A DNA stretch of 64,000 nucleotides from a virus: positions 1 to 64,000 of IMG/VR virus record IMGVR_UViG_3300036939_000039; one strand, given 5' to 3'. The position numbers and the translations under genes were made by a program. The number at the start of each line of letters is the position of its first letter. Positions within the stretch are counted from its first letter, which is position 1. The notes under the pieces are model-generated. The model ran no database searches. It was not told the DNA's origin and worked only from the letters and a program-made list of their open reading frames with translations. Shown here one piece after another: positions 733 through 63,617 of this stretch.

Positions 733-746
733 GTCTAATATTAGAC
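733..746. repeat. 14-bp palindrome GTCTAATATTAGAC (exact)
   Basis: Lies 7 nt after the stop at 726 and 16 nt upstream of the ATG at 763, with AAGGAG in between. Confidence 0.97.
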
Positions 747-762
747 AAATTAAGGAGTAACA

Positions 763-1119
763 ATGCAATTACCGATCAATATTTCAACCTTGAAGGGCAC
801 GGAAGTAAAGCGTACAACACTTGCGCTAGGAGAGCGATACACATTTGCCAATAGTGCTTCTACAGTGCTTGTGGTTGATCATCTTGATCCAGCTTCACCA
901 GAAGGCAATGCCCATATCAACTTCGTGACGCCCGCAAAAGCTTCTAGCAATTATGAAATAGAAGATCCTGTTGAGGCGATCGCTCCTGGTGAGACTAGGG
1001 TGTTTGGGGCACTTCCTTCTACAACTTTCAGTGGCACTGTTGAATTTACTGCATTGGGGACTGATGTGTCGGCTAATTTGGTGCAGGCTTATGTGTTGGA
1101 GGTAAGAACCTATGGTTAA
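763..1119 (+). CDS. hypothetical structural protein
   Basis: 118-aa ORF with a strong SD (AAGGAG) 8 nt upstream. Overlaps the next gene by 8 nt. Confidence 0.6.
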   Translation: MQLPINISTLKGTEVKRTTLALGERYTFANSASTVLVVDHLDPASPEGNAHINFVTPAKASSNYEIEDPVEAIAPGETRVFGALPSTTFSGTVEFTALGTDVSANLVQAYVLEVRTYG

Positions 1120-1501
1120 ACAGGGAGCACTCATTAATGGGCGATCGCTGAACAAATTCCTTAATTCACTAGCGCAAGATTACCAGAAAGCCTGCGCTAA
1201 GACTGTCCCTTTAATTCAAGAATTGACCCCTGTAGATACTAAGCGCCTATACAATTCAACGAGAGCCGAAACTGTTGTTTCATCAGGCAATATTGTCCAG
1301 TGTAACTTTGTTGCTGGTGGTGTTAGCTTACCGGGTGAATTGAGAGAACAGGGAATTGAGAGAAACGTGAATTATGCATATTGGGTAGAAATCAGGAACC
1401 CATATATTCGCCCAAATTTGCCTTCTATTGGCAGAGAGTTGATTGTTCAGTTGCAGCGCATTAGGGCGGCGCGTAAGGTTGGCAAGCAAGGTAATCTGTG
1501 A
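1112..1501 (+). CDS. HK97 gp10-like head-tail joining / neck protein
   Basis: PVDTKRLYNS resembles the PVDTGxLRxS motif of the HK97 gp10 family. Position upstream of the tail tube gene fits. Confidence 0.5.
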   Translation: MVKQGALINGRSLNKFLNSLAQDYQKACAKTVPLIQELTPVDTKRLYNSTRAETVVSSGNIVQCNFVAGGVSLPGELREQGIERNVNYAYWVEIRNPYIRPNLPSIGRELIVQLQRIRAARKVGKQGNL

Positions 1502-1947
1502 TGATTGGAACGCCTCCATCAACAGTTGAATTAAAACAGGTTTTGTGGTGCTGCCTGCGATCGCATCTTGGAGAGTTCATCGAACTCACAAACACTCATC
1601 CACGAACACTTGATGACATTCTCCTGAAGGGTGGGCGAATCGTTATTACTGAGATTGACAATCGAACAATTCAGCGTCAATTGACAACACAAGTTGCATC
1701 TTCCCCTGCGTTGCAGTTTGCGGCTTATCACCAAAATGAGGCGATCGCGGGTCAGTTAATGGAAGAGGTGGATTCAATTGTTAAGCTGAAATGTTGCTGC
1801 CTGCGGATGAACGGGCAACGGCTTGATCATGTGCAACGTCGGCAATGGATGCCTGTCCGTTTTGTTGATCAAGTAGCCCTTTATGTAAGTGCGTGTGTAT
1901 TTGAGTTTTTCTTACAAGCATGTATTAGCTGTTATCGAGAGGATTAA
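1498..1947 (+). CDS. putative tail completion / terminator protein (position only)
   Basis: 149-aa ORF. The likely start is the ATG at 1501, overlapping the upstream TGA. It lies directly before the putative tail tube gene. Confidence 0.35.
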   Translation: MMIGTPPSTVELKQVLWCCLRSHLGEFIELTNTHPRTLDDILLKGGRIVITEIDNRTIQRQLTTQVASSPALQFAAYHQNEAIAGQLMEEVDSIVKLKCCCLRMNGQRLDHVQRRQWMPVRFVDQVALYVSACVFEFFLQACISCYRED

Positions 1948-1950
1948 AAA

Positions 1951-2526
1951 ATGGCAAGAAATTTATTTACCGGGCCCGCGTATATTTATTTGCATTGGGG
2001 TACAGAACGAGAAATTGTTCTCACTCCGGATGACCAAATGGGCGCGGGAACTATTACGGATACCGAGGAATTTACCGAACAAATGACGCAGGCGTCTACA
2101 GCCCCTGCGGACAAGATTGTCTCTGGGTATCGTTGGCAGTTCTCTTTCAGTCTTGCTCGCGTTTGGGGTGGTGATTCGCTTGATATCATTGATTTGGTCT
2201 ATCATGGCGCACAACTACGGGTTGATCCGGAAGATGAATCCCGCAAGGCGTTGGGGTTCTATGATCGCGCTGGATGTCCAGTCGATAAATTTCCAATCTT
2301 GGTAAAAGCAGCAAGTTGTGATGGCCCGACACGGCATCCTGATTTATGGTGGTATTCTCCGTATGCTGGACTGTCAACTCAGGATGCTACGTTTACCTTT
2401 TCAAACACTGATCAGACGTCAATTGGGATTATGATTGACGCATTCCCACCCCCTCCAGAGTTGTCACTGCCTAAGATAATTAGAGGGGATTACACATTAT
2501 TTGGAGTAGGAGCACGCGATGATTAA
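1951..2526 (+). CDS. putative major tail (tube) protein
   Basis: 191-aa ORF immediately upstream of the two chaperone-position ORFs and the tape measure gene. Called by synteny only. Confidence 0.5.
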   Translation: MARNLFTGPAYIYLHWGTEREIVLTPDDQMGAGTITDTEEFTEQMTQASTAPADKIVSGYRWQFSFSLARVWGGDSLDIIDLVYHGAQLRVDPEDESRKALGFYDRAGCPVDKFPILVKAASCDGPTRHPDLWWYSPYAGLSTQDATFTFSNTDQTSIGIMIDAFPPPPELSLPKIIRGDYTLFGVGARDD

Positions 2527-3913: not shown

Positions 3914-3927
3914 GTCTAATATTAGAC
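3914..3927. repeat. 14-bp palindrome (exact)
   Basis: Lies 10 nt after the stop at 3903 and 40 nt upstream of the tape measure GTG. Confidence 0.97.
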
Positions 3928-6900: not shown

Positions 6901-9900
6901 GCGCCCTGATGCATCCTTGATTGACCAAATAAAGCAACGGACTGAGGCGTTAGCACAAAGCTCTTTAACGGCTAGTGATTTATCTAAGGGAGTACCTAAC
7001 ATCTCAGCTGCTTATGCTGATGTAGTCAAAGACTTACTACCTGGATTATCTCAAGAAATAGAACAAGCGATCGCCTCTCTTCCAGTCAATGAGCGTCTCA
7101 GTTCTGAGTTAGGTAATCAATTAGCTAATTTAAAATCACAAGTAATTAAGATTCAAAAACGTACAGAAGACTCCATCAAGCAAATTAATAAACCGCTAAC
7201 TCAGGCAATAGATGCTGGTGCTAGCGTCAAGAACCTGGGATTACAATTTAGCGAAAAAATTAAGTCAGCTAGAAAACTTTCAACACTTGATCCAATTGAG
7301 TCTCAAAAATTAGCCAATGAGGTTTTGACAGGCGCTAAGGAAGCAAGAAAGGCAATCGATGACTTGATGAAATCACTAGGTAGCAATGCTTCGCAGGAGC
7401 TAAAAGCGATCGCTAAGTCAGCTAGAACTAGAATTACGGTTGCTTCATCCTCTGCTGAATCTCTCGTTCAATCTCAGGAAGTTGGGTCTAATATTGGACA
7501 AGGCTTGAGTGAGGGAATGAGTCAATCAATTAACCAAGTCAAAGTTGCTGCTGAAGAATTGGCTAAATCTGCAATCGAGCAAGCAAAAGACACGCTAGAT
7601 ATACAAAGTCCGTCAAGGGTATTCCAGCGTATTGGTGAGTTTGTTGTAGAAGGATTTAGCCAAGGCATTCAGAAGGGACAGCAGGGGCTTGACTGGGCAA
7701 GAGAATTGATTACTAAGCCTAGCCAAGGGGCAATTGATAAGGTAATGCAAGTTAGAGAAGCGATCAATGAATTGATAAAAGCTAATCCCTTGCTGCGATC
7801 GCTGTCCAGTGGAATACGAGGAGTAGGCGTTGCATTACTTACATTGCAACTCATTCCAGTTTTAGGCAATATTGCAAATCAAGCTTACCAAACAGCAAAA
7901 GCTTTTGATAGTTTAGAGCGCTCAATTAGGTATAGTGCCGGATCTGAAAGTGAAGGCGCAAAAAACATTGCATACATCAGAAGCGAAGTAGAGCGACTCA
8001 ACGCACCATTGCAAGATGCGACAGAAAGCTTTAATGAGCTAGCTGGGGCATTGCAAGGCACTAAACTTCAGGGTAACACTCGTGAAATCTTCACGGCACT
8101 TAATGAGGCGGCATTAGTCAGGCAGTTGTCACCAGAGAAGCGCCGTCGCTTTGTTTATGGTGTGGCACAGGCAGCTGGCAAGCCTGTTTTGTCAAGCGAA
8201 GAGGTCAACCAGCAAATTGGTGAAGCATTGCCAGGTGCGGCGAATATTTTTGCTAGGGCGTATGGTGAATCACCTGAAACATTTAGGAAAAATCTGGTAA
8301 CGGGTCAATATTCAGGTGCTGAATCTGTTTTGAAATTTGCGCGTCAATTACGCGTTGAATTTGCGTCTGGAGTAGATGAGGCTACCAATTCAACTCAGGC
8401 ACTAGAAAATAGGTTAGGCAATACAAGAATTCAGCTAGAACGGATGCTAGGGAGCGCGGTAATGCCTCTAGTTAATACTGGATTGAAGGGATTAAATATT
8501 GCACTAGAGGCAGTTATTGCCAATGTAGACAAGATTACTTTAATCCTTGGTGCGTTGGCATTACAGCAGCTCCCAGCTGTCCTTGGGTTGATTCTAAAAA
8601 TTGCACAGGTTGCATTGCCTGCGCTTGCTGGTGGGTTTAATGTTGCAGCTGCCGCGATCGCTAAATTCTCTCTACAAACAGCTGCCTTGGCAGTAGCCCT
8701 CAAGGTAGTATCAGATACCTGGCAATCATTTCAAGGTTCTCAAAATCTAGATTCAGCAATTGAGAAAAACATCAAACAATTTAAGCGATTAGAGGATGCG
8801 GCTAGCGGGGTTGGGAAAGGCATTGTTAAGACGTCTAATGATTTAGATAAATTCCTCAATCGTAATATCCAACAAAAAGCACTTGATACATTCAATCCGA
8901 TCGCGTCAATTTTGGGTAATTACAATAAGTTGCAATCGATAATTCGATCACGCTCTAACTTAAAAGATATTCAAGAATTCAATAATCGAGTTAATGTTAC
9001 CCTTGGCAATTCTCAAGTTAAGCCTGATGATGCAGCGCGATCGCGACAGCTTAGTGCGTTAACCGCTGATCCGTTTTTGCCAAGCTATCAACGAGACATT
9101 TACAGCAAAGAAAAAGAGCAAATTGACACCAGAGTCCGCAATCAAAAGGAACTGGTGGATTCTTTGCTAGAAGCCGCCAATGCAGAGATTGAATCAATAG
9201 ATGAATTATGGGCAAAAAATCAGATTTCTCGGAAACAGGCAGATGTTTTAAAGTCTAATATTAGACAATCAATTCCTGCGCTGGAAGCTGCACAAAAAGA
9301 ACTCGAAAATTTTACTTCGGGACAAATCAGCTTAGTTAAGCTAATTCGTGACCAATTAACAAAAACTGCAACGGCTTATGCTGATGCTAATGCAGCGATC
9401 GCGAACAATACAGCGCGTTATCAAGTCGGTTTATCAACAGCCCAGCGCAATGGATTGACACCCGGTCAAGCACAGTATGGTCAGCAATTATTGCAACAGC
9501 GATCGCTAGAAGCACAAATCAATAATGCAAATACTGCGCTTAGTAAACTAAATAAGTATGTTGAAACGCCTGACAACGTACAGCTATTGTTTGAAAAAGG
9601 GATTAATCCTAGAACAGTAGGGGCTGAAGAACTCAATAGGCTTTCGGGTTTAGCTACGGGAGCTGAAGAGAAGTTGCTGTATGAGCGATTGACCAAGATG
9701 AGGGAAATAGAAGGGCAGCTGGGTCAGTTAGAGGTGCAGTTGAGTCAATCGCAAGCAGATGCTGCACAACAGCTTTATGAATTAGGTAAGTCCGTAGATG
9801 AGTATCTCAGGGGGATTACCAGGCAGACCCAGGAACTTCAGCTAACGATTGAGGCGAGTGAATCACAACTGGCGATCGCTGCTGAAAAGAATCGCTTGAT

Positions 9901-12900
9901 ATCTAAGTTGCAAGGATTTCAGTCTAATTTCTTCTCAGGATTTGTTGATTCGCTCATATCAGGACTGGACAGCATCCAGTCGGCACAACAGGCAGAGATA
10001 CAAAAGCGACAACAACTCTATCAAAACCAAATTCAAGCATCTGATTTGTTGCGTCAAGGGTCTGAGCTAACCCGTCAATTGCCAGATGGATTGCCTAGCA
10101 ATTTAGTCCCTAATTCAATATCTACAACGCCTATCCCAAGAATTCCTATCAGGCTTGACATTGACGCCGTAAATGCTGATGCAACGGTCAAGCAACTCAA
10201 GGCAGGATTGGAAAGCGCAGGAGTGACAACCAAAAATCTTAACGGCGCGATCGCTGATGTCAATACATCTTTGCAGCAGACACAGCTGCCTCCGCCCAAT
10301 CCCACGCCGTGGAATCAAGCGATTGACTTCCTAAAAGCAAAATGGAATGAGTTTGTAGAGTTCGTTAGGCAGCGGTTCCCTGACTTGTCTGCGGCTATTT
10401 CCAAGCCTTTTGCGGATGGTCAATTAAGTTTTGGCGCATTTAGTGCATCAATTGCTGGTGGTATTCCCGGTCTAATTGCGTTGTTTGCCGGATTAATTGG
10501 CACAAGTAAGCAATTCGAGGATGCATTAAAGAGCGGTTGGCAAGCATTCTTGAATGTTGTTGAACAAAGCAAAAATTTCCTGCTTAATATTTTCACTAAT
10601 CCTCGCGCTGCGTGGAATGACGCGATCGCTTCTCTTCAATCTAGCTGGAAATCTTTTGTAGCCTATGTTGACCAATCAGTTCCAGCTATTAGAAATATAA
10701 ATACTGAATTTAAGCGTATCAACGAAGTACTAAGAGAAAACATTGCCGCACAGATTGAAATAATAAAAAAGCAGCTTGAATCTATCCCTGGGATTCAATC
10801 TATTCGTGCAGAGTTATCACGAATGAATCAGGATTTAGGTCAAACAATTGCGTCATACTTGCAAATCATTGAAAAGCAACTTCAATCAATACCGGGCATA
10901 CAATCAATTCGCGCAGAATTAGCCCGGATGAATGAAGCCCTTAATCAGGCGATCGCGGCACACATTCAAATCATTGAAAAACAATTTGGCATCAATGATT
11001 TAACTGGGAAAATTAAAGCTAGTACTAAAGAGTTTGCAGCCATTGTAGGAGTTAACTTGCTCAAGGCATTTAATCCTGTCCTTGGGATTGTGACCGAAAT
11101 TGGCTTAAAGCTATCCAAGTATCCCAACTTAGTAGATGCAGCCAAAAAGCAAGTAACTAGCTTAGGAAATGAATTTAACAAGCTTGGCAATTCAGTTACA
11201 AGTCTAGGTGAAACACTAGTGGGTTCATTTGGTAAATCGATTGACACGATTAAGCAAAAAAGTAAGGAAGCGATCGCGTCAATCAAGGGTGACTCTGCTA
11301 ACTTTGAGCAATATGTACAAGAAGGGTTACTGAGTGCTGGTCAGGGGAGTGCAGCAACGCCACAAAAGCCAAAACAAAGATCAGCAACAAGTAGTACCAG
11401 TCTAATATTAGACTCAGGCGATGGAGGTAGCAGTGGCGGCGTTGTCAAAGGTAATGGACGAGTTACGATTGAATATCGAACGGGTTTAATCCCAGGACAA
11501 AACTATGGCGCACCTCGCCGGGGCGGGCGTCGCCACGCTGGACAAGATTTTGATATTAGTGGTAACCAAGAAGCTCAAAGTTTCTTGGGCGGTGTTGTCA
11601 CAAGGGTAGGTTTTGATCCAAGCTACAAGGGTTATGGGCACTACGTTGATATTTACAACAAAGCCTTAAATGTTGTTGAACGGATAGCCGAAGCGTCAAA
11701 GCTATTAGTTAAGCGGGGCGATACTGTTCAACCTGGTCAAGCGGTTGGCAAGGGTGAAACAAATACGGGTGTTATTCATTATGAAATCCATACTGATCAC
11801 CGTCGCGGTGTGGCGGATTTTGGGTTTCCTGGCACAACGAACCCAGTTAAATATCTTGAAAAATTAGGTTTAGTTCGACAGGTAGGAAATCGATTAAAAG
11901 TTACTGGTGGGTTAGCTCCATACGAGCAGCAGCTTAAAGGACAGATGCGACCCTCGGTATCTTCTACTGCTAATAGAAAAACGGAAGATCAAGGGATTAT
12001 CAGTGGAGGTGCTAATGCAATTGGGGCAGCGATCGCAAACTCACTCAGAAGCAATAGCAACGCGCCCACTAATCGAGCCATTCCAAGAGGGTTAACAGCA
12101 AAAGGGCAACGCTATGCTCAGTTGTTGAATGATCCGGAAATTCGAGCATTACTAGATATGATCGGGAGGGCTGAGGGTGCGGACTATAACTCGCTATATG
12201 GAGGTAGTAAGCTGTCGAGTTTAGCTCAACATCCCAATAGAGTAGTACGAAAACCGGGTTGGATTCCGTCAAGTGCAGCTGGTAAGTACCAATTCATGGA
12301 TTACACTTGGTTTGGACGGAGAAAACGGAGACCGGGCCCCGGAATTAGAGATATCACTGGGGTACCAGATTTTAGCCCTACTAGTCAGGACATTGCAGCG
12401 ATTGCCCTATTGGATGAAATAGGGGTTTTAGAAAAAGCAAAACAGGGAGATCTTCGTAGCATTTGGAAGCGACTTGGCGGAACGTGGGCAAGTCTTGAAG
12501 ATAATCCATATGAGCAGGGAACGCCCCAAGGTTTACGAAGTTCGGCTATCCCGTATTTTCAAAAACGACTTAATTATTATCGCCAACAAGGTAGAGGCTC
12601 TACTCCTGTGCGCCGTAGTGCGGTACTAGGGGTTAGCATGGTAAACCCCGAAGTAGTGGCAGAAGAGGCAGCAAAAGCAAGGCAAGCCGCACAAATTGCC
12701 CAACCTCCTAAAGCGCCCACTCCAAAACCAACTCCAGTCCCAGTATCAGTAGTATCTACCAAGCCAGTACCTGTTGTTGATACAGGCTTAAAACAGCGTG
12801 TTGTCAGTGGTCAAAGTCAAGTTATTCGTAACCGTGAAAGCCAAGATCAACTTGCCATCCAGCAAGAGCAACAAGCGCTTCAAGATTTGCAAACAAGGGG

Positions 12901-33287: not shown

Positions 33288-33336
33288 GAATGCAGCCTTA
33301 ATTGAATCATCGTTAATCTTAGGGACGTTCAGAAGC

Positions 33337-49203: not shown

Positions 49204-49217
49204 ATCTAATATTAGAC
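49204..49217. repeat. palindrome variant ATCTAATATTAGAC (1 mismatch)
   Basis: Lies 5 nt upstream of the remnant ATG. Same variant and same spacing as at 50437. Confidence 0.9.
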
Positions 49218-49475: not shown

Positions 49476-49489
49476 GTCGAATATCAGAC
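49476..49489. repeat. degenerate palindrome GTCGAATATCAGAC (2 mismatches)
   Basis: Lies between the terminator and the stop of 49505..50248. Confidence 0.6.
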
Positions 49490-50436: not shown

Positions 50437-50450
50437 ATCTAATATTAGAC
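50437..50450. repeat. palindrome variant ATCTAATATTAGAC (1 mismatch)
   Basis: Lies 5 nt upstream of the endolysin ATG. Confidence 0.9.
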
Positions 50451-51705: not shown

Positions 51706-51719
51706 GTCTAATATTAGAC
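51706..51719. repeat. 14-bp palindrome (exact)
   Basis: Lies 33 nt upstream of the ATG at 51672 (minus strand). Confidence 0.97.
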
Positions 51720-52508: not shown

Positions 52509-52522
52509 GTCTAATATTGGAC
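52509..52522. repeat. palindrome variant GTCTAATATTGGAC (1 mismatch)
   Basis: Lies 32 nt from the -35 box and 47 nt after the Rep stop. Confidence 0.9.
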
Positions 52523-54646: not shown

Positions 54647-54660
54647 GTCCAATATTGGAC
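54647..54660. repeat. symmetric double variant GTCCAATATTGGAC
   Basis: Still a perfect palindrome. Lies 8 nt upstream of GGTGTTAGATA (54669-54679). Confidence 0.85.
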
Positions 54661-55167: not shown

Positions 55168-55199
55168 AAACCCCTTGTCTAATATTAGACGAGGGGTTT
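55168..55199. repeat. exact 14-mer (55177-55190) embedded in a 32-nt hairpin
   Basis: AAACCCCTTGTCTAATATTAGACGAGGGGTTT with 15 of 16 arm positions pairing, followed by a T. Could terminate the Bro-N gene. Confidence 0.9.
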
Positions 55200-56030: not shown

Positions 56031-56044
56031 GTCTAATATTAGAC
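56031..56044. repeat. 14-bp palindrome (exact)
   Basis: Lies 10 nt after the stop at 56020 and 5 nt upstream of TTGACA. Confidence 0.97.
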
Positions 56045-56140: not shown

Positions 56141-56938
56141 ATGTTAACTCAATATCTTAAGTCGTTGTTAGAGCATGAGCAAAAAGCTGATGAGCGATTA
56201 TCTGCATTGCTAGAACAACGATGTGCGTTAGACGAGGAAATTGGGCTAACGAGAGCAGAGTGTCTTGATGTAAAGTGCAAGATCGAAAAATTCAAGAATG
56301 GCTGTGAGGATTTAGAGAAAGCGATCGCGCTGGCGGCTAAGGGGTTGCAACTCATTAATGAAGCGAATGGCGTTGCGACTCAAGATTTTTCGATAAAAGA
56401 AAGGTTCTGGGATTTAATCAAAGAAGCAATATTCTGTGATCCTCAGCCTGTACCAAATGCTGTTGTACCTGAGGGCGAATTTCCCGCTCCCTTGATTGAC
56501 AATAGTAGCCAGTCTAATATTGGACTGTCTACGGATACTGTCACTCCAGCTACTCCTTCTGATATTGCCGCAGATGAAATAGAAACAAGATTAGCTGAAG
56601 ACATAGTCGTTGTTGATAAAGGCATGGAATTAGCGACACAGGAGAGTGAAGTTAGTGTCCTTGAAAACTGCCCCAGCAAGGTAGAGGACGATCAAGCACA
56701 ATCTCCAGCAGGATCGCAGCCTTTATCACGAAGGGTTAGGACGAGAGCCAGTCATTTGCTAGGGTTTCGCGATCGCGTGCTGAGTAAAGCTGACATCAAG
56801 CGTATGCTTGTCAATTACAATATGGTCTCCTTTATGGAAGCGGTAAATCTAGAGCGATCGGGAGCCGATTTTTATATCGCTCTTGACAAGTGCTTGGACA
56901 AAATAGAGCAAAAACAAAAAGCAGGTAACGTCGTGTAG
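56141..56938 (+). CDS. hypothetical protein with coiled-coil N-terminus
   Basis: 265 aa with a GAGGA SD. Confidence 0.55.
   Translation: MLTQYLKSLLEHEQKADERLSALLEQRCALDEEIGLTRAECLDVKCKIEKFKNGCEDLEKAIALAAKGLQLINEANGVATQDFSIKERFWDLIKEAIFCDPQPVPNAVVPEGEFPAPLIDNSSQSNIGLSTDTVTPATPSDIAADEIETRLAEDIVVVDKGMELATQESEVSVLENCPSKVEDDQAQSPAGSQPLSRRVRTRASHLLGFRDRVLSKADIKRMLVNYNMVSFMEAVNLERSGADFYIALDKCLDKIEQKQKAGNVV
56512..56525. repeat. palindrome variant GTCTAATATTGGAC (1 mismatch), intragenic
   Basis: Read as S-N-I-G inside 56141..56938. Confidence 0.9.
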
Positions 56939-57001: not shown

Positions 57002-58012
57002 ATGATGATGCAATTTCCTTCCACTCCAAACCTTACTGCTGCACTGGCGATCGCTAAGTTATCGTTTGAGCCAATTATCGCCGACAGTAGCGCGGACTAC
57101 TCGACCAAGGCTGGTGGTCGGATTCGTTACGATTGGGCTGAATTAGATGACATTATTCCAGCCATTACTCCGGCGTTGTCTAATAATGGACTAACAATGG
57201 TTAGCCAAAATATTTATGTGGGCGACCCTTCCCTAGTTGGTGGCTCAGGTCGATTATATCTAGTCACGCGCTTACTGCATGTGTCAGGTGAAAGTCTCGA
57301 ATCGTACTACCCTTTGCCCCTTCCAGGGGATGATCCGAAATCGTTTGGGATTGCTTCAAAGTACGCACGCAGGTATAACACGCTAGCGCTTCTGGAGTTA
57401 AGCATTCTTGATGATGAAGAGTCAAAAAAGCAGCGTCGGCAAAAAATCGTAGGTGAAATCCAAAAAGATCTAACAGCACGACAATCAGGACGATCTGGCA
57501 GTGTAGGCAAGCAAAAAGTGCAGTCACCTACTTCATCCGAATCACTCTTGCCTGCATTGGCAGGTACATCAAAGAAAACTCAAGAGAAAGCTGTACCAAT
57601 GCCTCACCAGGAAGCCAAGTCAGCGCCTCAGTATTTACATCCTAAGCAAAATGCAGATATCAGGAAGCTGCGCGATCGCCTTGGCATTGATTCAGATTTT
57701 GTTTTAGGTAAAACTAATAATGTGCATCCAGGTAATCTTACTATCGAAGATTATCAAGCACTGGCAAAAGACATCGCTGTACACTGGGCAATCACTTCCA
57801 AGAAATTCGGTGATCGTAATGTTGCCCTAAATGATCTGGATGGGGCGTTACTTACTTTGCATGATTCGCAAAGGATGCCATTTATTGATGCCGTACATGG
57901 CTGGATTGATTCTCTTGAGGATGATTCCCCTGGGACAGCAGAAGATCTGCGCAAGGCTGAAGGGGATCGGTTAGCGCAAGCCATCAAGGATCGAGGTGTT
58001 CCAATAATCTAG
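57002..58012 (+). CDS. ERF-family single-strand annealing protein
   Basis: YDWAELDDIIPAITPALSNNGL ... LLHVSGES ... FGIASKYARRYNTLALL follows the ERF pattern (Y.y..l..v...v.p.L...Gl ... H.SGe ... G...TYarRY). Confidence 0.7.
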   Translation: MMMQFPSTPNLTAALAIAKLSFEPIIADSSADYSTKAGGRIRYDWAELDDIIPAITPALSNNGLTMVSQNIYVGDPSLVGGSGRLYLVTRLLHVSGESLESYYPLPLPGDDPKSFGIASKYARRYNTLALLELSILDDEESKKQRRQKIVGEIQKDLTARQSGRSGSVGKQKVQSPTSSESLLPALAGTSKKTQEKAVPMPHQEAKSAPQYLHPKQNADIRKLRDRLGIDSDFVLGKTNNVHPGNLTIEDYQALAKDIAVHWAITSKKFGDRNVALNDLDGALLTLHDSQRMPFIDAVHGWIDSLEDDSPGTAEDLRKAEGDRLAQAIKDRGVPII

Positions 58013-58097: not shown

Positions 58098-58111
58098 GTC
58101 TAATATTAGAC
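58098..58111. repeat. 14-bp palindrome (exact)
   Basis: Here it lies downstream of the promoter, in the predicted 5' UTR of 58157..60229. Confidence 0.97.
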
Positions 58112-60250: not shown

Positions 60251-60282
60251 AATTAGCCAGTCTAATATTAGACTGGCTAATT
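60251..60282. repeat. 32-bp perfect palindrome around the exact 14-mer (60260-60273)
   Basis: AATTAGCCAGTCTAATATTAGACTGGCTAATT. Confidence 0.97.
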
Positions 60283-61372: not shown

Positions 61373-61385
61373 AATCGTGACTCAA

Positions 61386-61399
61386 GTCTTATATTAGAC
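61386..61399. repeat. palindrome variant GTCTTATATTAGAC (1 mismatch)
   Basis: Lies 13 nt after the stop at 61372. Confidence 0.9.
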
Positions 61400-61478
61400 A
61401 AGGAAAAGGCTGTCACCATTATTCTCCTTTCATCCTCTCGTGATTTATGCTAGACAAAGATGCGAGAGGATTTTTATT

Positions 61479-61991
61479 ATGAAAACTAAAAAATATACAC
61501 AGGATTATGACGCGATCGCGTACCGGGCGATCGCTCTTGGAGGTACAGATAAGGCTGCATGGGAATCACTAGGAGTTATAGAAAAAACATTCTACAACTG
61601 GATGGGCAAGCATACTAGTTTTCGGGTAGCGGTTGAGGCGGCGCGAGAATTTCATCAGGCTTGCGCTCCGGATGCGCTAAGACTAGCTCTGCTGAGTCAT
61701 ATTGTAGAAACACTCAAGAATAAAGGAGAAGTAATTACAACTCAAACCAGAACAGTGCAGCGAACAGTTCAACGGGATGGAAGGAATCAAGTAATATTTG
61801 TTGCTGAGGTCGAGACTTCAACGGAGGTTTCGGAAGTTAGAGGCATTCCTCGATGGATTGCTGACAAGGTAATGGCTAATGCACCAGCATTGGGCGAAGC
61901 GATCGCTAAGGTCATCGGAGCGGGTTATGATGTCGCAGAACCGGGTGATTCTGAGTATTTGCTTCCACCAGTAAATGCCAATAGAAACTGA
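61479..61991 (+). CDS. terS: terminase small subunit (putative)
   Basis: HTH-like GGTDKAAWESLGVIEKTFYNWMGKHTSFRVAVEAA. GAGAGGA SD. The stop overlaps the terL ATG. Confidence 0.55.
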   Translation: MKTKKYTQDYDAIAYRAIALGGTDKAAWESLGVIEKTFYNWMGKHTSFRVAVEAAREFHQACAPDALRLALLSHIVETLKNKGEVITTQTRTVQRTVQRDGRNQVIFVAEVETSTEVSEVRGIPRWIADKVMANAPALGEAIAKVIGAGYDVAEPGDSEYLLPPVNANRN

Positions 61992-63598
61992 TGCAATCAT
62001 TAAATGCACGGCATGCATTGCAGTTCGGAGCTGACATTGTTACCCCTAAGATGCGATCGCGGATCAAGTTCAGGGGCGCAAAGTTTACCGACTACGCCTA
62101 TCGCCCCGTCGAGTTTGCATATGAGGTGCTAGGGATTAAATATTTAACTAACGACGCAAAAAGAATATTGCAAAGTATTTGTGACAATAAGGTTACAAAT
62201 GTTCAGGCATCGCATGGCATCGGCAAATCACATTTAGCGGGAGCAATTTTAATCCCTTATTGGGTGTTCGCGATGCAAGGGCTTTGTATTACTACGGCAC
62301 CAACGGAAAGACAGGTCAAGCAAATTTTATGGTCAGAGGCGCGTAAGTCTTATGGTGCGAACAAAGGTAAATTAGGTGGACGCGCTGGGGAGCTTTTTAT
62401 CAATCTGAGCGAAGAGGCGCGGGCGTTTGGCTTTACAGCACGGTCAACTGATAGCAATGGATTCCAGGGGGTACATGCCGATCGCTTATTATTGATCGAG
62501 GATGAAGCGTGTGGCATCAGCCAAGATATTGATGAGGGTGCTGAATCATGCCTTGTGGGAAGCAACAACCGGATGCTACGCATCGGCAATCCCTTGGCGG
62601 ATGGCACTCCCTTCGCAAAAGCCTGCAAGCGATCGCACATTAAAATTCCAGCATGGCAGCATCCTAATGTTGCTTGGGCTTATAGGATAGAGGCAGATGG
62701 AATTCATCGCATTAAAGAAGAATTGCGCCCCTACTTGTTTGATAAGGACGGGAACATATTAGATAGGGAGCGATGGGGACAACCCGCGATCGCTGCAATG
62801 CAAGCTTACCTTAAAGCTGTTGGGGCAATTGAAATCAAAGGGGCAATTTCTGTTGAGTGGATTGAAGAAAAGCGGGAAAAATATCACGAGAATTCAGCGT
62901 TTTGGGAATCTCGGATAGAGGCGCGGTTCCCTCTGGATGCTGGTCAGTCTATTATCCCGCGTCGCTATTTTTTAATGGCGCGTGTCGCCTTTGATTCTGT
63001 CGATGTCAAGCAGTGGGGTCAAAAATTATCAAATCACCCTCCACGCTATGGACTAGATGTTGGTGACGGAGGCGATCCGCATGCGATCGCTCGTTGGCAA
63101 GGCTCTGTTTTGTGGTCGGTTCGTTCTCAGGCAACTTTAGGGGATGAACTGGATTCAGGACGCGCAGCGGCGCTAGTAACCAGCGAGATTAAGTCGTTTG
63201 GAAATGGCGCGATCGCTGTAGATAATGTAGGCGTAGGTGCTGGTGCGTTAGACAGCCTCAAGCGCCAGCAATTAATAGCTAAGGGCTTTCGCTGGGGAAG
63301 TGCCCCCCATGATGCTGATCGCTTCGCTAATCTCAAGGCAGAGCAGTTTTGGTTATTACGAGAAGCTCTAGAAAAAAGTGAACTCGCGATCGCTCCCCTT
63401 GGGGAATACGAGGATGAATTAATGGAGGATTGGGCAAATACTTATTATGAAGAATTGCCTAATGGGAAAATAAAGATTGAGGATAAACGTATAACACGTA
63501 AACGTTTAGGCAGGAGTCCTAATCTTGGTGATGCCGTTGTCTATGCCTATCATTCCAAGAGTGGTCAACCTCGCGCTCCCATGACGTCCACTTATTAA
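61991..63598 (+). CDS. terL: terminase large subunit
   Basis: Walker A SHGIGKSH and Walker B LLLIEDEA. C-terminal nuclease-like half with DVGDGGD. Confidence 0.85.
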   Translation: MQSLNARHALQFGADIVTPKMRSRIKFRGAKFTDYAYRPVEFAYEVLGIKYLTNDAKRILQSICDNKVTNVQASHGIGKSHLAGAILIPYWVFAMQGLCITTAPTERQVKQILWSEARKSYGANKGKLGGRAGELFINLSEEARAFGFTARSTDSNGFQGVHADRLLLIEDEACGISQDIDEGAESCLVGSNNRMLRIGNPLADGTPFAKACKRSHIKIPAWQHPNVAWAYRIEADGIHRIKEELRPYLFDKDGNILDRERWGQPAIAAMQAYLKAVGAIEIKGAISVEWIEEKREKYHENSAFWESRIEARFPLDAGQSIIPRRYFLMARVAFDSVDVKQWGQKLSNHPPRYGLDVGDGGDPHAIARWQGSVLWSVRSQATLGDELDSGRAAALVTSEIKSFGNGAIAVDNVGVGAGALDSLKRQQLIAKGFRWGSAPHDADRFANLKAEQFWLLREALEKSELAIAPLGEYEDELMEDWANTYYEELPNGKIKIEDKRITRKRLGRSPNLGDAVVYAYHSKSGQPRAPMTSTY

Positions 63599-63603
63599 CA
63601 GCA

Positions 63604-63617
63604 GTCTAATATTAGAC
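63604..63617. repeat. 14-bp palindrome (exact)
   Basis: Lies 5 nt after the terL stop. A left half-site, GTCTAATATTT, follows at 63636. Confidence 0.97.

What the first reader, a model, noticed from the sequence alone, without database searches (positions are those of the whole stretch)
733..63617. A 14-bp perfect palindrome, GTCTAATATTAGAC, marks almost every gene-cassette boundary (23 exact, 15 near-exact copies)
**Copies (start coordinates)**
- Exact: 733, 3914, 9253, 11400, 15199, 18431, 22706, 24504, 26608, 29900, 32737, 33236, 39488, 40974, 41503, 43342, 44736, 51706, 55177, 56031, 58098, 60260, 63604.
- One mismatch: 7486, 16350, 19299, 31272, 35340, 45891, 46421, 49204, 50437, 52509, 56512, 61386.
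- Two mismatches: 37263, 49476, 54647.

**Why this is not chance**
- A given 14-mer is expected about 64000/4^14 = 0.0002 times in this window.
- About 30 copies sit in the short gaps between genes.
- They occur in both strand blocks and at co-directional, convergent and divergent junctions alike. Because the site is its own reverse complement, it is orientation-neutral.
- The same substitution (GTCTAATATTGGAC) recurs six times. Copy 54647 carries it on both halves (GTCCAATATTGGAC). This looks like selection on a dimer-binding site rather than random decay.

**Competing readings**
1. Operator or roadblock sites for one phage repressor. This would be analogous to the multi-copy stoperators of cluster A mycobacteriophages, but symmetric.
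2. A symmetric promoter core. The central TAATAT reads as a -10-like hexamer on both strands. Copies at 733, 19299, 22706, 24504, 26608, 31272, 35340, 43342, 49204 and 50437 lie 5-17 nt upstream of a start codon.
3. Recombination hot spots that delimit exchangeable cassettes, as proposed for PeSL elements in T4-type phages.
4. An RNA-level processing signal.

Sequence alone does not discriminate between these.
Basis: partly seen in the sequence, partly recalled or inferred. Interest (0 to 1): 0.9.

Follow-up and report, generated by a model that had tools for sequence, protein, structure and literature searches.

The report
Genome-wide 14-bp palindrome punctuating a cyanophage
A cyanobacterial virus carries about 40 strongly conserved copies of one 14-letter DNA palindrome, mostly in the gaps between its genes; it is most likely a docking site for a paired DNA-binding protein, and an unrelated virus family uses the identical sequence.

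Summary
**Observation: confirmed.** GTCTAATATTAGAC occurs 23 times exactly and 16 times with 1-2 mismatches in the window (0.2 expected). One more copy lies in the 3.5 kb of the 67.6-kb genome outside the window.

**What was measured**
- **Site width:** the site is really 16 bp, W-GTCTAATATTAGAC-W.
- **Conservation:** against a ~90%-identical relative, motif columns differ at 4 of 434 positions, versus ~10% background. The three copies inside the 11-kb tape-measure gene are identical.
- **Placement:** copies sit in about two-thirds of real intergenic gaps, often just after stop codons.
- **Spacing:** more even than random, with no gap above 3.8 kb.
- **Relation to promoters and terminators:** separate sigma-70-like promoters and intrinsic terminators lie beside the copies at variable distances.

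**Best reading (0.45):** an array of sites for a homodimeric DNA-binding protein that silences or insulates cassettes. It resembles stoperators and, most closely, the unexplained 17-bp dyad repeats of Cluster O mycobacteriophages. Cassette gain and loss at the sites looks like a by-product.

**Not resolved:** no binding protein was identified.

**New finding:** an unrelated podophage family uses the identical 14-mer in front of its early genes and shares no detectable protein with this phage. A relative of that family uses a different palindrome at equivalent positions.

**Less likely:** promoter-core and RNA-hairpin readings.

The parts
733..746 (.). exact copy; co-directional gap, 6 nt after the stop at 726 and 16 nt before the ATG at 763 (a ribosome-binding site lies between)
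   Evidence: identical in relative
3914..3927 (.). exact copy; 10 nt after the stop at 3903 and 40 nt before the tape-measure gene start at 3968
   Evidence: the relative has two copies 28 bp apart here
7486..7499 (.). GTCTAATATTGGAC inside the tape-measure gene, read in a stop-free frame (S-N-I-G)
   Evidence: identical in relative while flanks differ 8/60
9253..9266 (.). exact copy inside the tape-measure gene (S-N-I-R)
11400..11413 (.). exact copy inside the tape-measure gene, in the other stop-free frame (L-I-L-D)
   Evidence: identical in relative while flanks differ 15/60
15199..15212 (.). exact copy, 5 nt after the tape-measure stop codon (15193)
16350..16363 (.). GTCTAATATTAGAT at a convergent junction; follows the terminator hairpin of 15942..16274(+) and encodes the last residues (LILD) of the receiver-domain gene 16347..16736(-)
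18431..18444 (.). exact copy at a convergent junction; 7 nt after the histidine-kinase stop and overlapping the stop of 18439..18945(-)
19299..19312 (.). GTCTAATATTAGAT; 7 nt upstream of the start at 19291(-) and abutting the stop of 19312..21081(-)
22706..22719 (.). exact copy; 8 nt upstream of the ATG at 22697(-) and 47 nt after the stop of 22767..24494(-)
24504..24517 (.). exact copy; 9 nt upstream of the ATG at 24494(-) and 18 nt after the stop of 24536..25648(-)
26608..26621 (.). exact copy; 4 nt after the stop of 26319..26603(+) and 17 nt before the ATG at 26639 (tail protein)
   Evidence: relative has GTCCAATATTAGAC
29900..29913 (.). exact copy at a convergent junction; its two TAA triplets are the stop codons of 26639..29905(+) and 29908..30294(-)
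   Evidence: relative has ATCTAATATTAGAT
31272..31285 (.). GTCTAATATTGGAC in a 36-nt divergent gap; ATG 31264(-) is 7 nt away and ATG 31301(+) is 15 nt away
32737..32750 (.). exact copy; 8 nt after the stop at 32728 and 8 nt upstream of the -35 TTGACT of the promoter for 32819..33157
   Evidence: window-only cassette starts 59 bp downstream
33236..33249 (.). exact copy; a duplicate motif+promoter unit in front of 33283..34155; this cassette is absent from the relative
35340..35353 (.). GTCTAATATTGGAC; 16 nt upstream of the ATG at 35323 (C5 methyltransferase, -) and 7 nt after the helicase stop
37263..37276 (.). GTCTTATATTGGAC inside the 3' part of 37220..37732(-); its two mismatches remove both stop codons of the frame in which the gene reads it (V-Q-Y-K)
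   Evidence: identical in relative
39488..39501 (.). exact copy; abuts the stop of 39502..39660(-) and lies 52 nt upstream of the ATG at 39435(-)
40974..40987 (.). exact copy between the terminator of 41064..41429(-) and, 4 nt on, the TTGACA-18-TATAGT promoter of 40595..40912(-)
   Evidence: edge of a cassette indel
41503..41516 (.). exact copy 7 nt from the TTGACA-18-TATACT promoter of 41064..41429(-); with 40974 it brackets a one-gene cassette that the relative lacks
43342..43355 (.). exact copy; 13 nt upstream of the ATG at 43328(-) and 5 nt after the stop of 43361..43906(-)
44736..44749 (.). exact copy in the annotated 5' end of 43912..44763(-); it would be upstream of the gene if the start is an internal ATG
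45891..45904 (.). GTCAAATATTAGAC at a convergent junction, after the terminator of 45504..45797(+); the relative has a 493-bp insertion 3 bp away
46421..46434 (.). GTCTAATATTGGAC between the terminator of 46496..47065(-) and the promoter of 45950..46339(-); homology with the relative stops exactly at its edge
49204..49217 (.). ATCTAATATTAGAC just downstream of a TGcTAAAAT extended -10 and 5 nt before the ATG at 49223; a homology block with the relative starts exactly here
49476..49489 (.). GTCGAATATCAGAC at a convergent junction after the terminator at 49426-49460; identical in the relative
50437..50450 (.). ATCTAATATTAGAC; a duplicate of the 49204 unit, 5 nt before the ATG at 50456 (M15 peptidase, endolysin-like)
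51706..51719 (.). exact copy 33 nt upstream of the ATG at 51672(-)
52509..52522 (.). GTCTAATATTGGAC; 47 nt after the stop of 52570..53988(-) and 33 nt upstream of the TTGACA-17-TAGATT promoter of 51920..52417(-); a homology block boundary lies 6 bp away
54647..54660 (.). GTCCAATATTGGAC (changed symmetrically on both halves) upstream of the probable start of the Bro-N gene, followed by a GGTGTTAGAT promoter element
55177..55190 (.). exact copy at a convergent junction, at the centre of a longer hairpin (-21.7 kcal/mol) followed by a T run; terminator-like in this one context
56031..56044 (.). exact copy; 10 nt after the stop at 56020 and 5 nt upstream of a TTGACA-17-TAGATT promoter
56512..56525 (.). 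GTCTAATATTGGAC inside 56141..56938(+) (S-N-I-G); the relative lacks this gene
57178..57191 (.). GTCTAATAATGGAC inside the ERF recombinase gene; NOT conserved in the relative (6/14 differ), so probably a chance or decayed match and not a functional copy
58098..58111 (.). exact copy 17 nt downstream of the -10 of promoter 58051-58080 (so in the 5' leader) and 45 nt before the ATG at 58157 (methyltransferase)
60260..60273 (.). exact copy at the centre of a 32-bp perfect palindrome (60251-60282), between the stop at 60229 and the start at 60308
61386..61399 (.). GTCTTATATTAGAC; 13 nt after the stop at 61372 and 40 nt before the small-terminase start at 61440
63604..63617 (.). exact copy 5 nt after the stop codon of the large terminase

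Best explanation
**What it is.** The repeat is a DNA-level recognition site, 16 bp wide (W-GTCTAATATTAGAC-W). It is most likely read by a two-fold-symmetric (homodimeric) sequence-specific DNA-binding protein. About 40 copies are spread over the 67.6-kb genome of a siphovirus of a HIP1-rich, probably filamentous, cyanobacterium.

**Where the copies sit.**
- Usually one per intergenic gap, wherever genes do not abut.
- Often directly after, or overlapping, a stop codon.
- In the 11-kb tape-measure gene, written into the two reading frames that carry no stop codon.
- As a result, no stretch longer than 3.8 kb lacks a site.

**Proposed function.** The bound protein acts genome-wide as a silencer or insulator. 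It sits between cassettes, next to their promoters or across their 5' leaders, and blocks or dampens transcription. This would work like the stoperator array of Cluster A mycobacteriophages, but symmetric. The timing could be a carrier or lysogenic state, or a temporal switch.

**Side effect.** The identical sites, in the early region together with a ~50-bp promoter beside them, provide short homologies at which cassettes are gained and lost.

**Shown:** copy number, symmetry, purifying selection, placement, even spacing, breakpoints at sites, and use of the same 14-mer by an unrelated phage family.

**Inferred:** that a protein binds, that it is dimeric, and that its effect is silencing or insulation. 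The binder is not identified and could be encoded by the host.
For: **Non-random and selected**
- 39 matches against 0.2 expected.
- Against the ~90%-identical relative, motif columns differ at 4/308 and 0/126 positions (the latter excludes the pseudo-copy 57178). Background is 9.7% and 11.8%, in coding and intergenic DNA alike.
- The three intragenic tape-measure copies are identical in the relative, although their flanks differ by up to 25%.

**Symmetry points to a protein on duplex DNA**
- Both half-sites are equally conserved, and the central AATATT is invariant.
- Conservation stops abruptly after one flanking A/T.
- The flanking bases are complementary in only 18 of 39 copies, which is chance level. 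There is therefore no selection for a longer stem.
- In the second lineage, only the central two bases vary (GTCTAAnnTTAGAC). This is typical of a dimer that does not contact the centre.

**Not itself a promoter or terminator**
- In the early region the order is gene, terminator, motif, then a TTGACA-17/18-TAxxxT promoter.
- The motif lies 4 to 33 nt upstream of the -35, or downstream of the -10 (58098, 49204, 50437).
- Convergent junctions carry it in 6 of 8 cases; divergent junctions in only 3 of 8.

**A density requirement**
- The coefficient of variation of spacing is 0.57, against 0.96 for random placement (P~1e-4).
- The largest gap is 3.8 kb, against 7.2 kb expected (P~5e-4).
- Planktothrix phage Pag-Yong1 likewise has 5 copies of its own palindrome inside its 8.3-kb gene.

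**Sequence differs between related phages**
- TerL-65% and TerL-49% relatives of the window carry GACCGGAG(N)CTCCGGTC at gene ends instead.
- Pag-Yong1 carries GGTTCAGSCTGAACC 32 times, whereas its relatives L065 and L035 carry the window's motif.
- This is the pattern expected for a site that co-varies with a specific binder.

**Other support**
- A closely similar 16-mer occurs as a tandem, operator-like cluster in an unrelated metagenome contig.
- Closest precedent: for the >30 17-bp dyad repeats of Cluster O mycobacteriophages, the authors also predict binding by a dimeric protein (PMC4351075).
Against: - **No binder found.** The small HTH and RHH candidates have no family assignment. The XRE-like ORF has no homologue in 5.8 billion proteins. 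ParB_N is only E=0.1.
- **No shared protein.** The podophage lineage with the identical 14-mer shares no detectable protein with the window across its whole early region. A common phage-encoded binder is therefore unsupported. The alternatives are a host factor, convergence, or homology too remote to detect.
- **Temperate lifestyle not shown.** No integrase was found, and evidence for a repressor switch is only suggestive. Roadblocks inside the essential tape-measure gene would have to be lifted for lytic growth.
- **RNA or translation role not excluded.** Many copies lie 5-17 nt before a start codon or on a stop codon, which would also fit such a role.
- **No experimental data.** No transcript or binding data exist for this uncultured phage.
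Confidence: 0.45

Rival explanations
1. Recombination linker. The palindrome, together with the neighbouring promoter in the early region, exists mainly as a short shared homology at which gene cassettes are exchanged, duplicated or deleted. The phage's own ERF-type annealing protein could catalyse this. The model parallels the promoter-stem-loop (PeSL) cassettes proposed for T4-type phages and the classical 'linker' model of phage mosaicism.
For: **Breakpoints against the 90%-identical relative that coincide with a motif**
- The one-gene cassette 41064-41429 is bracketed by two motif+promoter repeats and is absent from the relative.
- Homology ends at 45907, 3 bp from a motif.
- Homology ends at 46434 and starts at 49204, both 0 bp from a motif.
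- Homology starts at 52503, 6 bp from a motif.
- Homology ends at L289:4078, 5 bp from a motif in the relative.
- Two further window-only cassettes (32809-34255 and 56120-57005) begin right after a motif+promoter unit.

**Other points**
- An ERF recombinase is encoded at 57002-58012.
- Copies often abut stop codons, as expected for cassette ends.
Against: - Other breakpoints are not at motifs (30252, 30817, 34255, 51471, 54018, 57005).
- If breakpoints simply fall in intergenic DNA, the excess at motif edges is modest: about 6-7 seen against about 4 expected.
- A linker does not need a palindrome, an invariant centre or a sharp 16-bp edge.
- A linker does not explain the conserved copies inside the tape-measure gene, the copies in tight structural operons, or the even spacing.
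- In Cluster O phages the analogous repeats are rarely at indels (PMC4351075).
Confidence: 0.15
2. Architectural or segregation array. The sites load a ParB/Noc/KorB-like or nucleoid-type protein that organises, partitions or compacts the phage DNA (for example an episomal prophage), rather than controlling transcription.
For: - Spacing is even and there are intragenic copies in the longest gene.
- The site is a 14-16-bp palindrome like parS, the KorB operator or Noc-binding sites (recalled knowledge).
- The 690-aa protein 58157-60229 has a GNRRIRAA-type ParB-like stretch (visible in the translation).
- A replication-initiator-like protein is encoded and no integrase was found, which would fit a plasmid-like prophage.
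- HIP1 density matches that of a host genome, suggesting long residence in cells.
- Cluster O phages with the analogous repeats also encode ParB-like-domain proteins.
Against: - ParB_N reaches only E=0.1 (13 bits, below the cut-off). The rest of that protein is a Dam-type methyltransferase, a common phage fusion not known to read a parS.
- No ParA was found.
- The podophage lineage with the same motif confines it to about 17 kb of early genes. That looks regulatory rather than architectural.
Confidence: 0.15
3. Symmetric promoter core. The central TAATATTA offers a -10-like hexamer (TAATAT) on both strands, so each copy would be a -35-independent, bidirectional promoter giving very short leaders.
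For: - TAATAT fits TAnnnT on both strands.
- Ten copies lie 5-17 nt upstream of a start codon, including both sides of the 36-nt divergent gap at 31272.
- Bidirectional promoters built on symmetric -10 elements have been described in bacteria (recalled, not checked here).
Against: - Divergent gaps are the least occupied (3 of 8). Convergent gaps, which need no promoter, are occupied in 6 of 8 cases.
- No -35 or TG extension accompanies the motif.
- The strictly conserved GTC/GAC arms are not explained by -10 recognition.
- Strong sigma-70-like promoters exist separately next to many copies, at variable distance.
- Three conserved copies lie inside one gene.
- In Pag-Yong1 the equivalent element is GC-rich and cannot be a -10.
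Confidence: 0.1
4. RNA-level signal. In the transcripts the element acts as a small hairpin or sequence tag: a processing site, an mRNA-end stabiliser or a translational operator. The centre AU|AUU resembles an RNase E-type site. Because the element is a palindrome, it reads the same in transcripts from either strand.
For: - Copies sit directly after stop codons and shortly before start codons.
- In the podophage lineage they lie 11-24 nt before the ATG of successive co-directional genes.
- The RNA can form a 5-bp stem (-4.4 kcal/mol, z=-6). At 55177 and 60260 the flanks extend it to about -20 kcal/mol.
- The palindromes of Pag-Yong1 and of L003 would make stable hairpins (-13.7 and -10.1 kcal/mol).
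Against: - The 'loop' (ATAT) is as invariant as the stem.
- Flanks are not selected to extend pairing: 18 of 39 are complementary.
- The common A-to-G variant is a G-U wobble on one strand and a C-A mismatch on the other. It occurs in sense transcripts of both kinds (7486 and 56512 versus 35340, 46421 and 52509).
- A strand-specific RNA signal has no need to be a perfect palindrome.
- No Rfam family matches.
Confidence: 0.1

Closest known systems
17-bp dyad-symmetry repeats of Cluster O mycobacteriophages (Corndog group), TGTTCGGNNNCCGAACA (PMC4351075, read)
   Same: - More than 30 near-invariant copies with dyad symmetry, spread over a ~70-kb siphovirus genome.
- Many copies are intergenic, some lie near gene starts and some inside genes.
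- No orientation relative to transcription.
- No integrase.
- A ParB-like-domain protein is encoded.
- The authors predict a dimeric DNA-binding protein and leave the function unknown.
   Different: - Unrelated sequence and host; no homology between the phages was shown.
- Here the centre is conserved as well (0-bp spacer against 3 variable bp).
- A smaller share of copies is intragenic (about 15-20% against about one third).
- Several indels do end at the sites, whereas the Cluster O paper reports few or none.
- The identical site is shared with an unrelated phage family.
Stoperators of Cluster A mycobacteriophages (L5 gp71 repressor sites)
   Same: - Tens of copies of a 13-14-bp site across early and late regions.
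- Copies lie mostly in short gaps next to start or stop codons, and a few lie inside genes.
- The proposed action is genome-wide silencing by blocking transcription.
   Different: - Stoperators are asymmetric and co-oriented with transcription (stated). This site is a perfect palindrome.
- No homologue of the L5 repressor was identified.
- A temperate lifestyle is not shown here.
Conserved inverted repeats (CIRs) bound by the phiC31 repressor
   Same: - A 17-bp inverted repeat at well over a dozen loci, largely intergenic.
- The sites are bound by one phage repressor.
   Different: - Fewer sites, a different sequence, and an actinophage with a known repressor gene.
- No counterpart gene was recognised here.
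PeSL (promoter-early stem-loop) cassettes of T4-type phages
   Same: - In the early region, a repeated unit (motif plus sigma-70-like promoter, often preceded by a terminator) flanks single small genes.
- Those genes are present or absent between close relatives.
   Different: - The conserved core is a 14-bp palindrome rather than a promoter plus stem-loop.
- The same core also occurs in structural operons, at convergent junctions and inside a gene, where there is no promoter.
ParB-family site arrays: KorB operators of RK2 (12 x 13-bp palindrome) and Noc-binding sites (about 70 x 14-bp palindrome) (recalled knowledge)
   Same: - Many dispersed copies of a 13-16-bp perfect palindrome read by a dimer.
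- KorB combines global repression with partition.
   Different: - The ParB-like stretch in 58157-60229 is below Pfam threshold (E=0.1) and is fused to a methyltransferase.
- No ParA is encoded.
- The site is unrelated to parS, the KorB operator or the Noc-binding site.
Start-associated sequences (SAS/ESAS) of Cluster K mycobacteriophages (PMC3203893, listed; contrasted)
   Same: A conserved short repeat close to the translation starts of a subset of genes.
   Different: - SAS is asymmetric, contains the ribosome-binding site and is tied to starts.
- Here the distance to the start ranges from 5 to more than 90 nt, and convergent junctions also carry the site.

Membership tests
Stoperator array (Cluster A mycobacteriophages) | Twenty or more copies of one 13-14-bp site spread over the whole genome, mostly in short intergenic gaps | tested here: met
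   40 copies in 67.6 kb, about three quarters of them at gene boundaries
Stoperator array (Cluster A mycobacteriophages) | Site is asymmetric and co-oriented with the direction of transcription | tested here: not met
   The site is a perfect palindrome, and the flanking W shows no orientation with respect to genes
Stoperator array (Cluster A mycobacteriophages) | Bound by the phage immunity repressor of a temperate phage | not testable with these tools
   No binder was identified. No integrase was found. Only an anti-repressor-like Bro-N protein and a divergent HTH/RHH gene pair hint at a switch.
Cluster O-type dyad-symmetric genome-wide repeats | More than 30 near-invariant copies of a short sequence with dyad symmetry throughout a siphovirus genome, not tied to promoters | tested here: met
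   definition taken from PMC4351075
Cluster O-type dyad-symmetric genome-wide repeats | The specific sequence TGTTCGGNNNCCGAACA, or homology to Cluster O phages | tested here: not met
   The sequence is different. No megablast match to any GenBank phage. The resemblance is by analogy only.
ParB/KorB/Noc site array | A ParB-family protein with an N-terminal domain and a site-reading HTH is encoded | tested here: inconclusive
   ParB_N E=0.1, 13 bits against a cut-off of 26. No PDB sequence match. The rest of the protein is a Dam methyltransferase.
ParB/KorB/Noc site array | A ParA-type partner ATPase is present | tested here: not met
   Not seen among about 56 ORFs scanned against Pfam, nor in the precomputed Pfam list
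PeSL-like mobile regulatory cassette | A repeated promoter-containing unit flanks small genes that differ between close relatives | tested here: met
   This holds for about 8 early-region copies (32737, 33236, 40974, 41503, 46421, 52509, 56031, 54647), with cassette indels at 41064-41429, 32809-34255 and 56120-57005
PeSL-like mobile regulatory cassette | All copies of the repeat contain the promoter and stem-loop | tested here: not met
   Most copies have no adjacent promoter: those in structural operons, at convergent junctions and inside genes
Intrinsic terminator | A G+C-rich hairpin followed by a U run | tested here: not met
   The motif alone folds at -4.4 kcal/mol with no T run. Only 55177 is embedded in a terminator-like hairpin. 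Separate terminators lie next to several copies.
Sigma-70-type promoter | A -35 and -10 pair, or an extended -10, at a fixed distance from the transcribed gene | tested here: not met
   No conserved -35 or TG. Junction statistics and the variable offsets argue against it. Transcription starts were not measured.
Integron attC / cassette array | A tyrosine recombinase (IntI) and 57-141-bp imperfect palindromes with R/L boxes | tested here: not met
   No integrase or recombinase domain other than ERF was found. The site is only 14-16 bp.
REP elements with RAYT transposase | 20-40-bp imperfect palindromes with a GTAG/CGTC tag and a cognate Y1 transposase | tested here: not met
   The site is a 14-bp perfect palindrome with no tag, and no transposase was detected

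The most novel reading that the evidence does not exclude
The palindrome may be the cis half of a portable 'genome punctuation' system.

**Basis.** The identical 14-mer is used at high density by two phage lineages that share no detectable protein:
- this cyanobacterial siphovirus, and
- a podophage family related to HTVC023P, MinM2 and Pag-Yong1.

**Possible trans factors.** The factor would be either:
- a host-encoded dimeric DNA-binding protein conserved among the hosts (for example a CRP/NtcA-like or other global regulator that reads GTC-N8-GAC) and co-opted independently by unrelated phages, or
- a tiny or fast-evolving binder that moves horizontally between phages.

**Consequences.** In either case the array both insulates cassettes and serves as the natural junction for swapping them. 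That would be direct sequence evidence for the old 'linker' model of modular phage evolution. Sister phages that carry different private palindromes at the same junctions would then be different 'dialects' of one mechanism.
Probability: 0.2. Interest if true: 0.85.

Novelty: new variant of a known kind. Interest (0 to 1): 0.62.

Why it matters
Genome-wide arrays of one short site are known in a few actinophage groups. For the symmetric kind (Cluster O), nobody knows what they do.

**What this case adds**
- A clear example in a cyanophage.
- Quantitative evidence that every copy, including those inside a gene, is under strong selection.
- Evidence that spacing is regulated.
- Evidence that cassette gain and loss happens at the sites.
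- Two unrelated phage families use the identical 14-mer, while their own relatives use other palindromes at the same junctions.

**What follows**
- These palindromes may be a general and overlooked layer of phage genome organisation.
- There is now a concrete handle for finding the trans factor: look for the protein, from phage or host, that tracks the motif across lineages.
- If the factor is a silencer or insulator, it would be a compact, orthogonal control element for engineering cyanobacteria and their phages.

Tried and rejected
**Searches that found nothing**
- Megablast of 23-24-kb pieces of the window against GenBank phages and PLSDB plasmids gave no match.
- Full-text searches for the 14-mer and the 12-mer core found no paper.
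- Searches for cyanophage palindromes, for Pag-Yong1 and for HTVC023P palindromes gave nothing relevant.
- The window has no Rfam family and no tRNA.

**Attempts to identify the binder**
- Pfam and PHROGs scans of about 56 ORFs assigned no family to the small HTH or RHH candidates.
- The XRE-like ORF 26319-26603 has no homologue other than itself.
- The 690-aa protein has no PDB sequence match.
- I walked the 65.6-kb podophage contig from 65.5 kb down to 32 kb, covering its whole early region. phmmer and tblastn found no protein shared with the window. A shared phage-encoded binder was therefore not supported.

**Collection scans for more motif-bearing lineages**
- The GTCTAATATTAGAT variant in viral contigs gave only single chance hits.
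- The 17-mer GTCTAATATTAGACAAA in metagenome contigs gave mostly chance hits in AT-rich contigs, plus more members of the same podophage family.

**Ideas considered and dropped**
- N4-type hairpin promoters: the giant ORF is a tape-measure protein, not a virion RNA polymerase.
- NtcA box: that site needs GTA/TAC, whereas here C and G are invariant at those positions.
- A target of the phage methyltransferases: no evidence, and they more plausibly act on GATC/CGATCG within HIP1.
- Integron-like attC sites and REP/RAYT elements: see the membership test.
- Concerted evolution or gene conversion alone: the flanks are not homogenised.

**Not possible**
The host is unknown, and a 14-mer scan of 596 Gb would be swamped by chance hits.
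It found only a 49%-identical relative in a Leptolyngbyaceae MAG.

Full report
**1.

A search for GTCTAATATTAGAC with up to two mismatches gives 39 matches in the window. Of these, 23 are exact, 12 have one mismatch and 4 have two. Dinucleotide-preserving shuffles give 0.20 on average and never more than 2.

Aligning the 78 half-sites shows that the base just outside the 14-mer is A or T in 71 of 78 cases. Nothing further out is conserved. The unit is therefore W-GTCTAATATTAGAC-W.

Isolated half-sites are only mildly in excess: 14 against about 8 expected.

**2. What the window is**

- It contains 151 copies of the cyanobacterial HIP1 octamer GCGATCGC, and G+C is 0.44.
- It encodes a 3741-aa tape-measure protein with an M23 peptidase domain, tail and virion proteins, and large and small terminase.
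- It also encodes an ERF recombinase, a helicase, C5 and Dam-type methyltransferases, an M15 peptidase, a Bro-N anti-repressor-like protein and a replication-initiator-like protein.
- Unusually, it carries a histidine kinase plus a receiver-domain protein.
- No integrase was seen.

An exact-protein look-up places the window in a 67,622-bp contig of the metagenome assembly GCA_034691105.1. The 3.5 kb not in the window holds one more exact copy, giving 40 per genome.

The nearest named relative of the terminase (49% identity) lies in a Leptolyngbyaceae cyanobacterium MAG. The element is an uncultured siphovirus-type cyanophage. There is no near match among GenBank phages or plasmids.

**3. Where the copies sit**

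| Junction type | With motif |
|---|---|
| Co-directional, gap of 20 nt or more | 21 of 29 |
| Convergent | 6 of 8 |
| Divergent | 3 of 8 |
| Abutting or overlapping genes | 0 of 18 |

- In co-directional gaps the copy tends to lie nearer the upstream stop codon (typically 5-15 nt) than the downstream start.
- At 29900 the two TAA triplets of the palindrome are the stop codons of both convergent genes.
- Three copies lie inside the 11.2-kb tape-measure gene, read in the two frames of the palindrome that have no stop codon.
- At 37263 the two mismatches are exactly those that remove the stops from the third frame.

Spacing around the genome is more even than random. The coefficient of variation is 0.57 against 0.96 (P about 1e-4). 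The largest gap is 3.8 kb against 7.2 kb expected (P about 5e-4). Without its internal copies, the tape-measure gene would leave an 11-kb hole.

**4. Selection**

IMG/VR holds a 67,430-bp contig about 90% identical to the window. I recovered 60.7 kb of it, containing 37 copies.

- In aligned regions the motif columns differ at 4 of 308 positions, and at 0 of 126 once 57178 is set aside.
- The background is 9.7% and 11.8%, the same in coding and intergenic DNA.
- The three tape-measure copies are identical, although their flanks differ at 4 to 15 of 60 positions.
- 57178 is not conserved (6 of 14 positions differ) and is best regarded as a chance or decayed match.

**5. DNA or RNA, protein or structure**

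- The two halves and the central AATATT are equally conserved.
- Conservation ends abruptly.
- The flanking A/T bases are complementary in only 18 of 39 copies, which is chance level. Nothing selects for a longer stem.
- As RNA the motif folds into a 5-bp stem with a 4-nt loop at only -4.4 kcal/mol. Only at 55177 and 60260 do the flanks extend it to about -20 kcal/mol.
- The common variant GTCTAATATTGGAC would keep a G-U pair in the RNA of one strand and give a C-A mismatch in the other. It occurs in genes of both orientations.

These features fit a homodimeric protein reading duplex DNA. They do not fit a hairpin.

**6. Not itself a promoter or a terminator**

The early region (39-58 kb) has a family of good sigma-70-like promoters, TTGACA-17/18-TAxxxT. 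They often carry a shared GGTGTTAGAT element. Intrinsic terminators are also present.

- The usual order is gene, terminator, palindrome, promoter, gene. Examples are 40974, 41503, 46421 and 56031.
- The palindrome lies 4, 5, 7, 8, 17 or 33 nt upstream of the -35.
- At 49204, 50437 and 58098 it lies downstream of the -10.
- There is therefore no fixed register.
- The low occupancy of divergent gaps and the high occupancy of convergent gaps is the opposite of what a promoter element would show.

**7. Cassette borders**

Comparison with the 90% relative shows many indels and replacements in the early region.

- The one-gene cassette 41064-41429 is bracketed by two motif+promoter repeats and is missing from the relative.
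- Homology stops or starts at 45907, 46434, 49204 and 52503, and at position 4078 of locus L289 in the relative. All of these are within 0-6 bp of a motif edge.
- Two window-only cassettes (32809-34255 and 56120-57005) begin right after a motif+promoter unit.
- Other breakpoints are not at motifs: 30252, 30817, 34255, 51471, 54018 and 57005.

Measured against the whole genome, the enrichment is large. Measured against intergenic DNA alone it is modest, roughly 6-7 seen for 4 expected. I read this as recombination using the repeated sites, with their promoters, as short homologies. That is a real effect on genome evolution, but probably not the reason the sites are kept.

**8. The same 14-mer in an unrelated phage family**

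Besides the relative and about a hundred single chance hits, it found five contigs with dense copies: L065, L035, L094, L098 and L105.

- These contigs have G+C of 0.49-0.53 and essentially no HIP1.
- L065 has 14 copies in 13.8 kb, L035 has 11 in 12.4 kb and L098 has 6 in 1.2 kb.
- They belong to one podophage family. Its terminase is 37-43% identical to those of Pelagibacter phage HTVC023P, Synechococcus phage MinM2 and Planktothrix phage Pag-Yong1.
- RTCTAATATTAGAY lies 11-24 nt before the ATG of successive co-directional early genes, often on the stop codon of the previous gene.
- It also lies within a few coding sequences and in the regulatory region next to an HTH gene.
- It is absent from the replication and terminase/portal parts sampled.
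- Orthologous junctions keep the motif between members that are only about 70% identical.
- In L035 only the two central bases vary.

I walked the 65.6-kb contig through its entire early region. No protein resembled any window protein.

**9. Private palindromes in sister phages**

- Pag-Yong1, of the same podophage family, has no copy of the window's motif. It has 32 copies of GGTTCAGSCTGAACC (0.07 expected).
- Those copies sit 3 nt after stop codons and about 20 nt before the next ATG. Five degenerate copies lie inside its 8.3-kb gene.
- Relatives of the window with 65% and 49% identical terminases lack the AT-rich motif. They carry GACCGGAG(N)CTCCGGTC at gene ends, 3-4 copies per 20 kb.

Punctuation by a palindrome is thus recurrent in both lineages, and the sequence is interchangeable. 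This is the pattern expected for a site that co-varies with a specific binder. It also argues against a -10-type promoter.

**10. Comparison with what is known**

The closest described case is the 17-bp dyad repeat TGTTCGGNNNCCGAACA of Cluster O mycobacteriophages.

- It has more than 30 invariant copies throughout ~70-kb siphovirus genomes.
- About one third of the copies lie inside genes.
- It is not oriented with transcription, and those phages have no integrase.
- A ParB-like-domain protein is present.
- The authors predict dimeric DNA-binding proteins and call the function unknown (PMC4351075).

Other comparators:
- Stoperators of Cluster A phages share the number and placement, but are asymmetric and oriented. 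The defining orientation feature is therefore not met here.
- PeSL cassettes of T4-type phages match the early-region units, but not the copies that have no promoter.
- ParB/KorB/Noc arrays match the site geometry. However, the ParB-like stretch of the 690-aa methyltransferase reaches only E=0.1, and no ParA is present.

**11. Verdict**

- The finding is real and under strong selection.
- The most likely mechanism is an array of binding sites for a dimeric DNA-binding protein that silences or insulates cassettes genome-wide. I put this at about 0.45 overall. The protein-site part alone I rate at about 0.65, and the silencing role alone at about 0.3.
- Recombination at the sites is a side effect.
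- An architectural role, a primary recombination role, a bidirectional promoter and an RNA signal remain possible, at about 0.1-0.15 each.
- The binder is unknown.
- The two lineages with the identical site share no detectable protein. That leaves a host-encoded factor, a very small or fast-evolving portable binder, or convergence.
- I classify the finding as a new variant of a known but functionally unresolved kind of phage feature.

Noticed in passing
window 1-64000: The cyanobacterial HIP1 octamer GCGATCGC occurs 151 times, about one per 424 bp, which is as dense as in HIP1-rich host genomes. This suggests long co-residence with such a host. The podophage lineage with the same 14-mer has almost none.
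   Followed up: partly
window 16347-18423: The phage carries a divergent pair made of a histidine kinase (17053-18423, HATPase_c/HisKA) and a stand-alone receiver-domain protein (16347-16736). That is a two-component system inside the structural region.
   Followed up: no
window 3968-15193: This is a single 3741-aa tape-measure ORF with TMP_3 and M23 peptidase domains and a weak alpha/beta-hydrolase hit. The internal motif copies at 7486 and 9253 are in the same frame, so recombination between them would give an in-frame 589-aa deletion.
   Followed up: no
window 32769, 33268, 40954, 41480, 46384, 52458, 54669, 56068, 60292 and others: A second conserved element, GGTGTTAGAT, lies in the spacer and -10 region of the early sigma-70-like promoters, at a variable register to the -35. 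It shares TTAGA(C/T) with the palindrome's half-site. It may be the operator of a second regulator.
   Followed up: partly
window 45339-45395: An inverted pair, ATATCTAACACT ... AGTGTTAGATAT, lies between the divergent HTH-like gene (44955-45485, -) and the RHH-like gene (45504-45797, +). It looks like a small genetic switch. No copy of the 14-bp palindrome lies between these two genes.
   Followed up: no
window 49160-49300 and 50393-50535: A unit of extended -10 promoter, palindrome and the first ~25 codons of the M15 peptidase gene is duplicated. The first copy heads only a 54-codon ORF (49223-49387).
   Followed up: no
window 7486, 31272, 35340, 46421, 52509, 56512: All six single A-to-G variants read GTCTAATATTGGAC on the + strand and none reads GTCCAATATTAGAC, whatever the direction of the local genes. 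The split is 6:0 (two-sided P about 0.03). This hints at a polarity tied to the genome rather than to transcription. It is unexplained.
   Followed up: partly
L122 (Planktothrix phage Pag-Yong1, OL906435.1) 1-50000: There are 32 copies of a private palindrome, GGTTCAGSCTGAACC. The extra flank GGA(T/G/C) lies on the same absolute strand in 21 of 32 copies, in genes of both directions. G+C is 0.68, which is odd for a phage said to infect Planktothrix.
   Followed up: partly
L002, L003 (IMG/VR) and L288 (Leptolyngbyaceae MAG JBHJJI010000175.1): More distant relatives of the window (terminase 65% and 49% identical) carry a different, G+C-rich palindrome, GACCGGAG(N)CTCCGGTC, after the terminase gene and at other gene ends. 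It is conserved across that deeper divergence.
   Followed up: partly
L307 5990-6075 (= L356, metagenome contig Ga0307417_10003635): In a bacterial-looking contig, four tandem operator-like sites TGTCTAnTATTAGACA (one exact) lie upstream of a 368-aa gene, next to a hybrid sensor kinase. So a DNA-binding specificity close to the phage motif may exist in cellular genomes.
   Followed up: no
L098 715-1260 (also L094, L105): In the podophage family, the region between the HTH gene and the late genes holds 3-4 motif copies and runs of GTTACAT repeats that resemble iterons or RpaB-type HLR1 boxes. It also holds a ~100-bp palindrome centred on one motif copy. This is probably an origin or a main regulatory region.
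   Followed up: no
window 40595-40912 and 51920-52417; 37220-37732 and 47488-48303: There are two pairs of paralogues: two small proteins sharing an N-terminal '...W.NCW.VV.G.GARFVS' domain, each behind a motif+promoter unit, and two T5orf172/MUG113-domain proteins.
   Followed up: no
relative contig IMGVR_UViG_3300035686_000004, 57609 and 57637 (upstream of the tape-measure gene): The relative has two exact copies 28 bp apart where the window has one (3914). The replication-initiator-like gene 52570-53988 is only 75% identical over part of its length and is otherwise replaced.
   Followed up: partly
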